Source: Octopus vulgaris
Lineage: Eukaryota
Reading direction: 5' to 3'
NCBI GenBank assembly: GCA_951406725.2
Contig: OX597827.1
Span: forward strand, 64,976,001-65,040,000
Length of the DNA: 64,000 nt
This document shows, piece by piece, positions 12,638 to 60,490 of this stretch. The notes below the pieces were generated by a model. That model saw nothing but the letters and a program-made list of their open reading frames with translations. It did not search any database and was not told the origin of the DNA. Position numbers and translations under genes: made by a program. Every line of letters starts with the position of its first letter. The stretch's first letter is position 1.

Positions 12638-12686
<49 letters not shown>

Positions 12687-12830
12687 TGAGTGTATTTTTA
12701 CCTTGTTAACAATTAACACGGAAAAAAAAAATAGTTACCAGGGCAGCAAAAATCTCACAAGTAAAGGTGCTGTAACACCTTGTTTATAAAGGTAGAAACT
12801 TCGTCTTTACGTTGAATATTTTGAATAATA

Positions 12831-13018
12831 TGAATAAAAAAATGGAGTTAACGCAGGTGTAATCAAATATTTTTACTTTCGACACATGTTTCGAAAATTC
12901 CACTGATACTATTCAAAAGAATAAATGGTATAAACAATGCAATCTTCTCCTCAGGAAAGTGAAAAAAACGAAACTCGCCAATAAGACGTTTTAGCAACCT
13001 GCGTTAACTCCATTTTTA

Positions 13019-13022
<4 letters not shown>
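12831..13022. mobile_element. Mini element with ~27-bp inverted ends enclosing a hammerhead (Penelope-derived)
   Basis: tgaataaaaaaatggagttaacgcaggt (12831-12858) versus acctgcgttaactccatttttattca (12997-13022), abutting (TA)n. Confidence 0.8.
12875..12960 (-). ncRNA. Type I hammerhead ribozyme, complete core
   Basis: ACUUUC-CUGAGGA-GAAGAUU[loop]AAUUUUC-GAAAC-AUGU-GUC-GAAAGU: 6-bp stem I, 7-bp stem II, palindromic ACAUGU in stem III, GUC cleavage site. Confidence 0.9.
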
Positions 13023-13079
<57 letters not shown>

Positions 13080-13444: not shown

Positions 13445-15080
13445 ATAATGGTTTCAAATTTAGGCACAAGGCCAGCAATTTCAGGAGAGTGGCTAAGTCG
13501 ATTACATCGATCCCAGTACTCTACTCGTACTCATGTAATCGACGCCGAAAGGATGAAAAACAAGTTCGACTTCAGCAGAATTTGAATTCAGAACGTAGAA
13601 ACGGACGAAATACTGCTCTGCATTCTTCACAGTGTCCTAAGGTCCTGCCAGCACACTGCTCTTGGTGATTTCAAAGTTCAGTACACGTTTAGCAGTTTCA
13701 AGAAAGGGGTTAAGTCGATTATATCGACGCCAGTGCTCGACTGGTACTTATTTTATCGAGCCCCAAAAGGGATGAAAAACAAAGTCGACCTCCACGGAAA
13801 TTGAACTCAGAACATAAAGACAGACGATATACTGCAGCTGATTCTTTTCTACTCTAGAAAGAAAGCCTGAAATTTTGGGGGCGGGTGCCAGTCGATTAGA
13901 TCGATTCCAGTATGCAACTCGTACTTAATTTATCGATAGCGAGAGGGTAAAAGGCAAAGTCGACCTCAGCGGAAATTGAAATCAGAACGTAAAGACAAAC
14001 GAAATACCTATTTCTTTACTACCTTCAAGGGGCTAAACACTGAAGGGACAAAGAAGGACAGACAAACGGATTAAGTCGATTATATCGACCCCAGTGCGTA
14101 ACTGATACTTATTTAATCGACCCCAAAAGGATGAAAGGCAAAGTCGACCTCGGAGGAATTTGAACTCAGAACGTAACGGCAGACGAAATACGGTTACGCA
14201 TTTCGCCTGGCGTGCTAACGATTTCACCAGACGTGTTAAGCATTTCACCAGCCGTGGAAGTGATTTCTACTCTAGGTACAAGACCCGAACATTTCGGAAC
14301 TGTGGAGAGGTACAGTCAATTAGATCTACCACGGTACGCAACTGGTACTTAATTTATCTTCCCGACAGGATGAAACGCAAAGTCGACCTCGGCGGAAATT
14401 GAACTCAGAACATAAAGGCAGACAAAATACCTATTTCTTTACTACCCACAAGGAGCTAAACACAGCGAGGACAAACAAGGACAGACAAACGGATTAAGTC
14501 AGTTATATCGTCCCCAGTGCGTAACTGGTACTTATTTAATCGACCCAGAAAGGATGAAAGCCAAAGTCAACCACGGCGGAATTTGAACTTAGAACGTAGC
14601 GGCAGACGAAATACCTATTTCTTTACTACCCACAAAGGGGCTAAACACAGAGGGGACAAACAAGGACAGACATAGGTATTAAGTCGATTACATCGACCCC
14701 AGTGCGTAACTGGTACTTAATTTATCGACCCCGAAAGGATGAAAGGCAAAGTCGACCTCGGCGGAATTTGAACTCACAACGTAACGCAGACGAAATAACG
14801 CTAAGCATTTCGCCCGACTTACTAACGTTTCTGCCAGCTCGCCGCCTTCATTATTTCTTTATTACCCACAAGGGGCTAAACATAGAGGGAACAAACAAGG
14901 ACAGACATAGGTATTAAGTCGATTACATCGACCCCAGTGCGTAACTGGTACTTAATTTATCGACCCCGAAAGGATGAAAGGTAAAGTCGACCTCGGCGGA
15001 ATTTGAACTTAGAACGTAGCGGCAGACGAAATACCACTAAGCATTTAGCACGGTGTGCTAACGATTCTGCCAGCTCGCTG
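13445..15080 (-). mobile_element. Array of about 8 family T SINE units
   Basis: B-box/gtcgacctcggcggaatttgaactcag motif recurs near 13580, 13800, 13975, 14158, 14398, 14580, 14765 and 15000. Confidence 0.92.
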
Positions 15081-17453: not shown

Positions 17454-17514
17454 TTATCGTATTGGTTCCAATTTCAGAGTTAGTTCATAAGAATTTTCCC
17501 CTCCTCAGCGATAA
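17454..17514 (-). ncRNA. Type I hammerhead ribozyme, complete core
   Basis: UUAUCG-CUGAGGA-GGGG[loop]CUCU-GAAA-UUGGAACCAA-UA-CGAUAA: perfect 6-bp stem I, AUA cleavage site. Confidence 0.8.
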
Positions 17515-22434: not shown

Positions 22435-23600
22435 GGACAGGCTGAAAAGTTTATAGGCTAACTTTGAAGGAGTGATGCCAGGGTTTCAAAATGCTGCATG
22501 CATTAATTCCAACTGTCCCTATTAATAACTGTATCGTTTCTTTCCAGGTAAACTAGGTATGTTTGCATCTGGGATTATAGCATCCGTTCGCTGGTCTAAA
22601 ACAAGAACTCCAAGGACGTAACGAGTTTCAAACAGGCGCAATTTTCTAAATGTTTTTCTTGCAATTACGAAAATGGGCTGAAATATTTATAGGCGAACTG
22701 GCAGACACATTAGCACGCCGGGCGAAGTGCTTAGCGGTATTTCGTCTGCTGCTACGTTCTGAGTTCAAATACCGCCGAGGTCGACTTTGACTTTCATCCT
22801 TTCGGGGTCGATTAAATAAGTACTAGTTACGCCCTGTGGTCGATATAATCGACTTAATCCGTTAGTCCGACCTTGTTTGTCCTCTCTGTGTTTAGCCCCT
22901 TGTGGGTAGTAAAGAAATAGGTATTTCGTCTCCCGTTACGTTCTGAGTTCAAATTCCGCCGAGGTCGACTTTGCCTTTCATGTTTTCGAGGTCGATAAAT
23001 TAAGTACCAGTTACGGACTGGGGTCGATGTAATCGACTTAATTCCTTTATCTGTCCTTGTTTGTCCTCTCTGTGTTTAGCCCCTTGTTGGTAGGAAAGGA
23101 ATAGGTATTTCGTTTGCTGCTACGTTCTGAGTTCAAATTCCGCCGAGGTGGACTTTGCCGTTTATCCTTTCGGGGTCGATAAATTAAGTACCAGTTACGG
23201 ACTGGGGTAGATGTAATTGACTTAATCTGTTTGTCTGTCCTTGTTTGTCCCCTCTATGTTTTGCCCCTTGTGGGCAATAAAGAATTAAGAAATATTTATA
23301 GGCTGATTATTAAGGAGCTATGCTAGAGCTCTGAAATCTTGCCTGAACTAATTACACTTTTTAATAATTGTATTGTTTCTCTTTAGTTAAACTTTATCTA
23401 ATTGTTCATCGACACTTGTAAATAACTAGTAGCAGATTCTCTTGAAAATGGACAAAATTTGGCATTGCGATGTTATGAAGAACCCGCCGAAAGAGGATAT
23501 TCATGCAAATATACTATGCTTGCTACATACGAGGATTACGCTCCAGCTTTATCAATAGTACAAAAGTGGACAGATGAATTTTGGTGGAGAGATTATCGCA
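22435..23600 (+). mobile_element. Decayed mariner 5' region interrupted by a SINE
   Basis: End-like motif g.gctgaaa..tttataggc occurs twice. From ~23448 the translation MDKIWHCDVM...DIHA...ATYEDYAPALSIVQKWTDEF resembles a mariner N-terminal HTH. Confidence 0.65.
22692..23290 (+). mobile_element. Family T SINE trimer with target-site duplication
   Basis: Three units; gaaatatttataggc at 22680-22694 and 23289-23303. Confidence 0.92.
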
Positions 23601-31002: not shown

Positions 31003-31203
31003 ATCCAAACAAGAAAGCACAAAAAGCACAACAACGCGAGTACGTGGAACAAATATAGTATTATTGGACGCTCAGGAAAGAATGAAAGAAGGAGGGTTTA
31101 ACGTTTCGAGCGGAGCTCTTCGTCGGAAACATAGGAGAAGGAAAGATCTAGATAAGGGAAGACAGAGGAAAAAAAATCGCCAACGGTAGACACGAGGTCA
31201 CAT
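30998..31203 (-). mobile_element. Family H1 copy with the best-preserved motif (31096-31130)
   Basis: GUUU-CCGACGA-AGAGC-UCC-GCUC-GAAAC-GUU-AAAC, with stem I GUUU/AAAC. Confidence 0.85.
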
Positions 31204-48957: not shown

Positions 48958-49904
48958 TTCTTCGATCTTCTGTGATGCGATCTTTGCAGTGTGGGGTCAC
49001 GCATTGTCCTGATGAAACATTACTCCTTTTCGATTCACTAAAGCGGGTCTTTTTTTCTTCAATGCTTGGAACAAACGCTCTAATTGCTGACTGTAGACTT
49101 GATCATTGATTGTTGCATTAGGTGGTAACAATTCAAAGTGAATTACTCCTTTGCAATCACAGCAAATAGAGAGAAGAATCTTTTCCCCATGAAGTTCCCT
49201 TCTCGGTTGTGGTTGAGCTTTGTTCCTTTTACCAATCCACTGTTTACGACGTTTAACACCTCGATAAAAGATCCATTTTTCGTCACCAGTCACATGTCTA
49301 TCCAAAAAGAGTGAAATGATTTCGCGAGAACGGAGAGAAGAGCAGATGTCAACTCGGAATTTGCAGTTGCTTTCGTACAATTCATGAAGCACCGAATTTC
49401 CAAATTTAGGAACCTTTCCAAGTTGTTGAAGAAGAAGATTAACAGTTGTATGGTTTGAACGAAGCTTTATTGTCAATTCTTCAACTGACAATGCATGATT
49501 TTCTTCTAGTATTGCCCTCAAGGATCATATCATCAAACTCAACAGGACGTCCTGTTCGATCTTCATCTTCAGGGATGATATATCCACTTCTGAATTTTGC
49601 AAACGATCTACTGAAACTTCTTTCATTGAAACAGTATTTCCCATAAACTGAGTGTATGTTTCGAGGCGCTTCGGCTGTTGTACTCATAAAACATTATGTG
49701 CCTCAAATGCTCTTCGGATATTTCTATGTTGAAAAGATTTTTAATCAAAGTAATTTTAATTCTATTATTCTGTAAAATAATACTTAATTAGTTAAATGTA
49801 CACAAACCTATACAAATAATTTTCAATTCCATTAGACATTCTAAAATACCATTAAATTTCATTCAGTTTAATAAATCTGAAATCGGACAGAATTTATGGG
49901 ATGA

Positions 49905-56699: not shown

Positions 56700-57115
56700 T
56701 TTCTTTTTTTATTGCCCATAAGGTGCTGAACATAGAAGGTCAAACAAGGACAAATAAGGGGTTTAAATCGCTTACATCGACCCCAGTGTGTAACTGGTAC
56801 TTCTTCAATCGACCTTAAAAGGATGAAAGGCAAAGTCGACCTTGGCGGAATTTGAACTCAGAACGTAACAGCAGACGAAATACCTATTTCTTTATTACCC
56901 TCAAGGGGCTAAACACAGATCGGACAAACAAGGACAGACATAGGTATTAAGTCGATTACATCGACCCCAGTGCGTAACTGGTACTTAATTTATCGACCTC
57001 GAAAGGATGAAAGGCAAAGTCGACCTCGGCGGAATTTGAACTCACAACGTAAAGCAGACGAAATACCACCAAGCATTTCACCTGGCATGCTAACGATTCT
57101 GCCAGCTCACCGCCC
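56700..57115 (-). mobile_element. Family T SINE dimer with 16-bp TSD
   Basis: ttaatattggataata at 56684-56699 and 57116-57131. Confidence 0.92.
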
Positions 57116-58607: not shown

Positions 58608-59900
58608 CTCTCTTTTCACTCGTATTGAAGTATTTCTTTTAAATTTTGGTTTTCCTCTTTCATTCCACGTGTATCTTCTAGTTATTAGTTCATCCTGATA
58701 TATCTATTTCCCGCAGTAATTTCTTTATTGAAACTACACATTTATAATAGAAAAGGTCGTTAATAAATTATTATGTTTTTCTTTATACGCAGTGGGGAGC
58801 TTCTTTCTCGAACATTCCTTCTTTTGATTTGATGGATTACGTTTCTTGTCTCTTACAACACATTTTCATTACATACTTTCATAAATCTACCTTGCCGAAG
58901 GTCAGATACCTTACGCTAAGCAACTAACATACTTAAATGTCTTTAAGCTTTTCTTTCCCTCTCTCTTTCCTTTATTCTTTCCACTTTAGTCCTTTCTTTC
59001 TTTGACTGCCTTGATTTTAATGCATCTCATCACTATATTTTCACACCTTCATAAGGCTTCGTACTGTTTCCTCACCTTCATAACGCTTCGTACCATTTTC
59101 TCACCTTCATAACGCATCGTGCCATCTTCACTTCGCTTACTTCATCACCTACATTCTCATTTTCTCCCGTCTTCACTTTATATATTTATGCTTAACCAAT
59201 ACAATTACATCTGCCAGCTCTTTCCTCACTTTTCTCTATCTGCGACTTATATTTCCTAGAATGACCTCTCGTTTACTCATAATCTCACACTTTATCTAAT
59301 TTCTAGACACAAAAATTTATTATGAATATTATACCCATCCTTTCGCATTCGCTAATTTACCCTTCTGGAGAAAATATTTCGATGCTGCTCGCATAAACTT
59401 AATCATAAGTTGAAAAACTATTTGAATATATGATTTTCGGGATATTGCCTCATAATGTTCACCTCTTCCTTAGACTTGCAATTGTTTCGTGCAACATCTA
59501 TATTCCTTCCCATGCCTGTCATCACTTATGTGCCTGCCGTAAGGCTTCACTTCCACACATGCTAGCTTAATCTAATTCCTCCTTAGTCGAAAGACACCTA
59601 TTATTAATGTCCTGTTGTTTGCATTTGTAGTTGTGTACCATTTCTCCGTTTTTTTTTCTTCCTTGTTTTCGTATACCTTCGCTGCTTACTTCCAATGAAT
59701 CTAGAGGTTTTAGCCTAAATCTTCCTTGGGGCCAGCCAGATTGGAGCACTCTCGAGTTTAACAAGCCGAAACTACAAAGATAATCTGGAACTCGACTGAC
59801 GGAAGAAAAATCCGAATGACCCGTCCTGGCTTTTTTTTTGTCACTTTTTTGTATCGTCTAACTATCTGGATGTTTTCGTTCCTGTCCCACTTTCTGTAAT

Positions 59901-59976
<76 letters not shown>

Positions 59977-59982
59977 AGCATG

Positions 59983-60490
59983 CAGGGGTTGGAAAAATAA
60001 TGGGAACACTTTAAAATTTCAAACAAATGTATTTTAATATTGGATAGGAGAAATTTGGAAGTAATTACAGCTTGAATTCTACGAGGTATGGACTCGTACA
60101 AAGTTTGAATTGTTCCTAAAGGAATTTGTATCAATTCTTCAGCTAAAACAGTCTCCAGGTTTTGTAGTGATGATGGTGGAGGATATCGACTCCTTACTCG
60201 TTTTTCTAAAATACACCATAAATGTTCAATAATATCAAGATCTGTAGACTGTGGTGGCCAGATAAGATGTTCAACTTGACTAGAATGTTCCTCGTGCCAT
60301 TCAGTAACAACTTTAGCTGTGTGAATTGGTGCATTATCATCCTAAATGATTCCGTTTCTATATCAAGATCTGTGGACTGTGGTGGCCAGATAAGATGTTC
60401 AACTTGACTAGAATGTTCCTCGTGCCATTCAGTAACAACTTTAGCTGTGTGAATTGGTGCATTATCATCCTAAAAGATTGCGTTTCTATA
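59983..60490 (-). mobile_element. Tc1-like transposon 3' remnant with an internal 128-bp tandem duplication
   Basis: *DDNAPIHTAKVVTEWHEEHSSQVEHLIWPPQSTDLDIIEHLWCILEKRV...LYESIPRRIQAVI. TIR-like caggggttggaaaaataatgggaacac. Confidence 0.9.

What the first reader, a model, noticed from the sequence alone, without database searches (positions are those of the whole stretch)
12831..13022. Best-preserved hammerhead within a 190-bp inverted-end element
All core residues are present, with a GUC site (predicted cut between 12881 and 12880), 6-bp stem I, 7-bp stem II with a long loop, and palindromic stem III. It is enclosed by ~27-bp inverted termini. This is the strongest candidate for an active ribozyme. 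If the region is an intron of a minus-strand gene it could cut the pre-mRNA (inference).
Basis: partly seen in the sequence, partly recalled or inferred. Interest (0 to 1): 0.7.

Follow-up and report, generated by a model that had tools for sequence, protein, structure and literature searches.

The report
Eroding hammerhead in Penelope-like retrotransposon family
This is the leftover tail end of a common jumping gene that carries a textbook self-cutting RNA motif, a known pairing; this lone copy is likely inert, but the family's youngest copies carry core changes predicted to weaken cutting, which offers a natural test of whether such elements need the ribozyme at all.

Summary
The '190-bp inverted-end element' is not a unit. 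The insertion spans 12685-13023: a 5'-truncated end (pseudo-LTR) of a Penelope-like retrotransposon plus a short inverted arm, inside (TA)n. Longer copies in this genome have pLTR, a 775-aa RT/GIY-YIG frame and pLTR, and resemble the Hydra clade but lack its linker zinc finger. A 21-mer of the end occurs 983 times; 23 of the 29 closest copies have the identical hammerhead, so this copy is not special. Helix III is a self-complementary 8-mer that should need a second ribozyme, and the fold is predicted to be lost in context, so cutting of a host pre-mRNA is unlikely; no host gene was found. At family level, the canonical core is the ancestral state (274 copies). A derived U4C core is commoner (499), and the youngest clade, which holds the intact frames, adds further changes. 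Two-armed insertions pair a short end with a long, 146-nt-tailed end (43 of 45 by script). Cleavage is untested. The scan noted similar Hydra-like hammerheads before on other DNA.

The parts
12685..13023 (-). Whole insertion: 5'-truncated end of a Penelope-like element (main arm) plus a short inverted arm, head to head
   Evidence: locus L055: main arm -116..+199, inverted arm +23..+52 relative to the predicted cut
12685..12997 (-). Main arm: last 313 nt of the element's 3' pseudo-LTR, ending at the long end; 5 private substitutions, none in the hammerhead
12997..13023 (+). Inverted arm, about 27 nt, ending at the short end; specific to this insertion, the source of the apparent inverted termini
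12685..12829 (-).
12875..12960 (-). Type I hammerhead, canonical core CUGAGGA...GAAA, GUC site; predicted cut between 12881 and 12880
12893..12947 (-). Helix II, 7 bp plus a 41-nt insert predicted to extend it as an interrupted rod
12882..12889 (-). Self-complementary helix III segment ACAUGUGU, predicted to pair between two ribozyme copies
12640..12684 (.). (TA)n target tract at the long end
13022..13076 (.). (TA)n target tract at the short end

Best explanation
The stretch is a 5'-truncated, two-armed insertion of a Hydra-like Penelope retrotransposon in a (TA)n tract, and its hammerhead is the family's ancestral ribozyme, which likely cuts only as a dimer or with the element's protein and is therefore probably inert in this lone copy. 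Shown: the repeat family, the parent with RT and C-terminal GIY-YIG, the two fixed 3' ends, the TA target, the one-short-one-long pairing of arms, and the order of core states on the tree. Inferred: the element's protein nicked both strands of the TA tract and primed reverse transcription at two internal sites on the RNA, 146 nt apart; both cDNAs stopped early and were joined head to head, giving a 313-nt arm and a 27-nt arm. In full-length tandem transcripts two hammerheads could pair through helix III and trim the RNA, but insertion does not seem to need that: the copied RNA was whole across the cut site, arms do not pile up at the cut site, and later master copies spread with a U4C core and then further weakening changes.
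For: Family and parent: 3 of 20 near-full-length copies hold an unbroken 775-aa frame; pLTR-ORF-pLTR, unit 2863 nt; motifs; nearest Atlas clusters 0.98, hypothetical proteins of 687-712 aa; further rows with GIY-YIG. Ends: 45 two-armed insertions among 74 loci, 43 short+long by script, none short+short or long+long, the other 2 short+long by eye; 114 of 118 ends abut TA repeats. Ribozyme constraint: sister families keep CUGA(A)GA in 17 of 25 and CUGA(U)GA in 21 of 25 copies, varying at the free positions 7 and 17; RNAalifold recovers helices I and II unaided, 5 of 19 pairs with compensatory change; 96% of cells paired against 38-51% when slid. Weak monomer. No cut-site footprint: 1 of 45 arms starts at 0..+2, 0.8 expected. 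Order of states. Literature: PMC8557442, PMC4209133, PMC11167929, PMC3846280.
Against: No cleavage or expression data. Folding models ignore tertiary contacts and co-transcriptional folding; the isolated 106-mer does form helices I and II (0.74, 0.8), so a monomer may cut slowly, or RNAs from other loci may supply the partner in trans. The compensatory pairs are about five events among three families, not independent samples. Seven of 45 arms start within -6..+8 of the cut (4.1 expected, P 0.11), so a blurred footprint is not excluded. The linker zinc finger of the Hydra clade is absent and RWK reads RWL; no tree with published Hydra proteins was built.
Confidence: 0.85

Rival explanations
1. 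The later core changes are tuning, not decay: U4C and the accompanying changes keep a slower but still needed ribozyme, so cleavage remains part of the element's cycle.
For: U4C is a known natural variant that lowers activity in vitro yet supports viroid infectivity (PMC3088659, discussion passage). An unrelated repeat family in this window (31126, minus) has CCGA in 17 of 18 parsed copies. The youngest clade gains a perfect palindrome in helix III (duplex -7.0 against -6.0 kcal/mol) and loses the competing hairpin over the core: stem II 0.9 and stem I 0.18 in context, against 0.04 and 0.00 for a canonical pLTR. G5, A6, G8, A9, G12-A14 and A15.1-U16.1 stay fixed.
Against: Fixed differences between oldest and youngest classes are no rarer in the hammerhead (7 of 106) than in neighbouring non-coding sequence (6 of 234, 4 of 40, 7 of 146; ORF 9 of 567). 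The youngest copies also turn G10.1-C11.1 into G-U and lose a stem I pair. Core mutants did not block insertion in vitro for the anole element (PMC11167929).
Confidence: 0.45
2. This copy is an active monomeric ribozyme that cuts a minus-strand host pre-mRNA.
For: All core residues intact, no private substitution in the motif; isolated motif folds into helices I and II.
Against: Helix III pairs 0.00-0.04; stem I 0.01 in its own context; no host exon recognised; the motif is identical in most close copies, so intactness needs no local selection.
Confidence: 0.07
3. The 190-bp unit is a small mobile element with terminal inverted repeats (MITE-like) or a self-replicating retrozyme.
For: 26-28-bp inverted match and a strong fold-back (z -7.5).
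Against: The inverted piece is private: other copies continue into the ORF's 3' region; junctions differ in every insertion; no tandem array.
Confidence: 0.02

Closest known systems
Hydra clade of Penelope-like elements, e.g. Hydra-1_Obim (Craig et al. 2021, PMC8557442; read abstract, passages, section 11, supplement part 2 and passages)
   Same: Single ORF with RT and C-terminal GIY-YIG, DKT, CxxC and CxH motifs, no CCHH, unit under 3 kb, (TA)n target, type I hammerhead near the 3' end with palindromic helix III. The protein resembles Hydra-1_Obim by eye along the N-terminus and RT.
   Different: Different family: its hammerhead differs from that of Hydra-1_Obim. No CxCX5C linker, replaced by an Asn-rich stretch; RWL for RWK. 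Helix II encloses 41 nt against 3-10 nt in the listed Hydra motifs. Tail about 146 nt against 30-40. A derived U4C core is the majority; the listed Hydra cores all have U4.
Hammerheads in pLTRs of metazoan PLEs (Cervera and de la Pena 2014, PMC4209133; read parts 1-2 of 4)
   Same: Type I, long helix II, weak palindromic helix III, mostly found as solo truncated copies, some as opposite-strand pairs 100-700 bp apart.
   Different: No extra nucleotide between A9 and G10.1; helix I of 6 bp with a covarying distal extension; far longer helix II.
PAc Poseidon element of Anolis (Frangieh et al. 2024, PMC11167929; read parts 1-2 of 4)
   Same: Two 3' ends with a tail between them, AT-rich target, hammerhead in the pLTR, no sign of ends at the cut site.
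   Different: There the hammerhead overlaps the start codon and the two start sites are adjacent and inside the ORF; here both ends lie upstream of the ATG and 146 nt apart.
Metazoan non-LTR retrozymes (PMC7229834, passages; bioRxiv 10.64898/2026.07.22.740005, part 1 of 5)
   Same: Type I hammerhead in a short AT-rich repeat; dimer requirement when helix III is short.
   Different: No head-to-tail array; copies are variable truncations of a coding element.

Membership tests
Type I hammerhead ribozyme | Core CUGANGA, GAAA, UH triplet | tested here: met
Type I hammerhead ribozyme | Helices I and II around the core, supported by covariation | tested here: met
   (one search was a mis-registered structure and is discarded)
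Type I hammerhead ribozyme | Helix III | tested here: inconclusive
   2-3 bp, probability 0.00-0.04 as monomer; 8-mer self-duplex -6.0 kcal/mol
Type I hammerhead ribozyme | Self-cleavage at the UH site | not testable with these tools
   no assay; only assembled contigs were laid
Type I hammerhead ribozyme | Tertiary contact between helices I and II | not tested
   -
EN+ Penelope-like element | Single ORF, RT plus GIY-YIG, in the parent element | tested here: met
   775-aa frame with YRDD at 353 and YIG at 671; Atlas neighbours. Pfam (three fragments) and PDB gave no significant match
EN+ Penelope-like element | pLTRs as partial tandems, inverted truncated arm, optional tail on one end | tested here: met
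Hydra clade | C-terminal endonuclease, DKT, CxxC and CxH, no CCHH or CX2-5CxxC | tested here: met
   SDKTG 121, CLLC 735, CKH 763, only 8 Cys; definitions
Hydra clade | Unit under 3 kb, (TA)n target, canonical hammerhead | tested here: met
   2863 nt; 114 of 118 ends; canonical in this copy's subfamily
Hydra clade | RWK motif | tested here: inconclusive
   RIRWL at the matching place
Hydra clade | CxCX5C linker before the endonuclease | tested here: not met
   absent in the intact frame and in sister-family fragments; present in Hydra-1_Obim. Hence filed as Hydra-like
Hydra clade | Groups with published Hydra proteins on an RT tree | not tested
   published sequences compared by eye only
MITE or other terminal-inverted-repeat element | Same inverted termini in all copies | tested here: not met
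Non-LTR retrozyme | Head-to-tail non-coding units each with a hammerhead | tested here: not met

The most novel reading that the evidence does not exclude
This family records a Penelope-like element shedding its ribozyme while still spreading: successive master copies went from a canonical core to U4C to U4C plus broken closing pairs, the most damaged form is the youngest and holds the intact frames, and it still targets (TA)n without the linker zinc finger. If the youngest form cannot cut, hammerhead cleavage is dispensable, or even costly, for these elements in vivo.
Probability: 0.35. Interest if true: 0.6.

Novelty: new variant of a known kind. Interest (0 to 1): 0.36.

Why it matters
The locus itself is one ordinary stub among about a thousand. 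The family matters modestly: what hammerheads do for endonuclease-bearing Penelope elements is stated as unclear in PMC8557442, and here a dated allelic series of natural ribozymes sits on one protein background, so four short transcripts can test whether cleavage tracks transposition. The long helix II would hide such motifs from standard searches. The strict short-plus-long pairing of arms fits two priming events on one RNA and gives start sites 146 nt apart that an in vitro assay could resolve. TA targeting without the linker zinc finger argues against that finger being required.

Tried and rejected
Rfam gathering scan of the window: nothing. Pfam on three ORF fragments and PDB sequence search: nothing significant. 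Cut-site footprint in DNA: not found. An apparent junction hot spot about 357 nt upstream of the cut was an artefact of a 39-bp deletion in my reference copy; with an intact reference the starts are scattered. One search used a structure off by one column; redone. Helix III indices were off by one; redone. A conserved fold for the tail was not found (consensus energy -2.2 kcal/mol). A read-based look for a host intron gave no result, so the host-gene question rests on the frame list alone. Faster change in the hammerhead as positive selection: rejected, neighbouring non-coding parts change as fast. Paper searches found no report of this family or of subfamily-level core erosion in a PLE; five searches of an open-access library do not show absence. 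Supplements of the bioRxiv retrozyme preprint were not seen.

Full report
Observation. On the minus strand, 12960-12875 reads as a type I hammerhead: 6-bp stem I, CUGAGGA, 7-bp helix II, GAA, ACAUGUGU, C17, with the predicted cut between 12881 and 12880. A descriptor scan found three such motifs in the window and none in 200 shuffles. Rfam misses it, probably because helix II encloses 41 nt that fold as a further interrupted hairpin. The inverted match of 26-28 bp is real.

Boundaries. The window lies in a 2.8-Gb animal genome. A search with the 192-mer gave 1454 candidates; the 40 scored match at 94-100% but almost all only over query 26-192. So the first 25 nt belong to this insertion alone. 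Other copies continue upstream into shared sequence and, in about half, downstream for 146 nt to a second fixed end, as the window copy does. The insertion is 12685-13023, between two TA tracts: a 313-nt main arm and a 27-nt inverted arm, head to head.

Parent element. Upstream of longer copies lies a frame with RT and C-terminal GIY-YIG. One locus shows the classical layout of inverted truncated arm, pLTR, ORF, pLTR. Of 20 near-full-length copies, 3 hold an unbroken 775-aa frame; the unit is 2863 nt. It has DKT, YRDD, YIG, CxxC and CxH, no CCHH, RWL for RWK, and no CxCX5C linker. These are the Hydra-clade marks of Craig et al. (PMC8557442, section 11) except the linker. The protein resembles Hydra-1_Obim by eye but the hammerhead differs. 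I file it as a Penelope-like element that works like Hydra; clade membership is untested on a tree. Nearest Atlas clusters score 0.98 and are unnamed 687-712-aa proteins, with GIY-YIG in further rows; Pfam and PDB gave nothing.

How the insertion likely formed. An exact 21-mer of the end occurs 983 times, control 0. I fetched 98 of the first 100 listed hits, 74 loci after dropping 6 duplicates. Of these, 45 are two-armed: 43 pair a short end (+52 from the cut) with a long end (+199) by script, none pairs like with like, and the other 2 are short plus long by eye. 114 of 118 ends abut TA repeats. A tail on one inverted pLTR is known (PMC3846280 passages; PMC8557442), and in the anole element it lies between two reverse-transcription start sites, with both target strands cut and extended (PMC11167929). 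I infer two priming events, one per strand, at sites 146 nt apart, followed by head-to-head joining. The tail is about four times the published 30-40 bp.

Is the motif under selection? Two sister families, about 77% and 73% identical over the motif, keep the core: CUGAAGA in 17 of 25 and CUGAUGA in 21 of 25 best-matching copies, with change at the free positions 7 and 17. On 14 hand-picked copies RNAalifold recovers stem I with a distal extension and helix II with its extension, 5 of 19 pairs compensatory; 96% of cells pair, against 38-51% for slid controls, but the number of compensatory pairs is not beyond the shuffles (128 of 500), and the changes are few events. This supports a constrained structure in the lineage.

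Would this copy cut? Helix III pairs have probability 0.00-0.04 in the monomer; the 8-mer can pair with a second copy (-6.0 kcal/mol). Stem I has probability 0.74 in the isolated 106-mer and 0.01 in the 192- and 337-nt contexts, where a hairpin takes up the CUGAGGA strand. A single PLE hammerhead showed no cleavage and dimers little (PMC4209133); the anole one needs protein and its core mutants still insert. The copy has 5 private substitutions in 313 nt, none in the motif, and 23 of the 29 closest copies have the identical motif, so intactness needs no local function. No host exon was recognisable. No DNA footprint of cutting: 1 of 45 arms starts at 0..+2 (0.8 expected), 7 within -6..+8 (4.1 expected, P 0.11).

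Core states in the family. Among 98 arms, 62 had a readable core: 43 CCGAAGA (U4C), 13 CUGAGGA, 6 singletons. Genome-wide exact counts are 274 for a canonical 27-mer and 499 for a U4C 25-mer. A tree on 790 nt that excludes the hammerhead puts 42 of 63 rows in one clade (99/91) where every readable core has C4, with a ladder ending in copies that also have GUA, G10.1-U11.1 and often one stem I pair fewer. Rooting on the sister family makes the canonical core ancestral (clade support 87/91; both trees had unsettled bootstraps). One basal copy has C4 in one of its two pLTRs. Divergence from class majority falls from 1.08% (16 canonical copies) to 0.66% (10) to 0.25% (15 youngest), P under 0.003; classes were picked by hand from the tree, intermediates were left out, and the canonical class is a grade, which inflates its value. 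All 3 intact frames are U4C plus GUA; one canonical copy reaches 751 codons. Fixed differences are 7 of 106 in the hammerhead, 9 of 567 in the ORF, and 6 of 234, 4 of 40 and 7 of 146 in other mostly non-coding parts: relaxed constraint fits, positive selection is not shown.

Against simple decay. U4C lowers activity in vitro but allows viroid infectivity (PMC3088659, passage and section 8). An unrelated repeat in this window has CCGA in 17 of 18 parsed copies. The youngest form folds better in context and has a perfect helix III palindrome. Tuning and decay remain about equally open; only assays can separate them.

Verdict. A real hammerhead in a known setting, misread as a small inverted-repeat element; the copy is probably a passenger. 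The family is a variant of a known kind: long helix II, long tail, no linker zinc finger, and a dated series of core changes. Earlier notes of this scan describe the long arm, the CCGA core and the missing finger in other repeats of this genome; a look-up by this sequence found none. Hammerhead numbering and the expectation that G10.1-U11.1 weakens cleavage are from my own knowledge, partly backed.

Noticed in passing
window 17454-17514, minus: Second type I hammerhead with canonical CUGAGGA core and a 12-nt palindromic helix III; part of a separate repeat family (2736 candidates, 92-95% identity). Its helix III is longer than that of the given finding, so it may be the better monomer candidate.
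   Followed up: partly
window about 31096-31130, minus: Minimal hammerhead with CCGACGA core in a third repeat family (519 candidates); C at position 4 in 17 of 18 parsed copies.
   Followed up: partly
L148:381-991 (G000:C1 near 212.01 Mb): Both arms of this family start at the same place (+10) and flank a 371-nt unrelated insert with 92-bp inverted ends: possibly a captured RNA or a second element copied between the two ends.
   Followed up: partly
L208-L232 (e.g. G000:C1:132968496-132968681): A sister family with 95-100% identical copies keeps a canonical CUGAUGA core with a GUU site and the same long helix II and two-ended tail: a young control with an intact core.
   Followed up: partly
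L043:1879-4203, residues about 600-655: An Asn-rich stretch stands where the Hydra linker zinc finger should be; Asn-rich inserts between RT and endonuclease are described in rotifer Penelope elements (PMC3846280, passage).
   Followed up: partly
window 14314-14797, 22736-23284, 56704-57067: Short tandem arrays of a 184-185-bp repeat that recurs through the window.
   Followed up: no
window 48997-49524 and 59862-60341, minus: Frames that look like fragments of Tc1/mariner transposases (resemblance recalled, not searched).
   Followed up: no
L032:1596-2612, minus: A 339-codon Tc1-like transposase frame next to a full-length copy of the family (name recalled).
   Followed up: no
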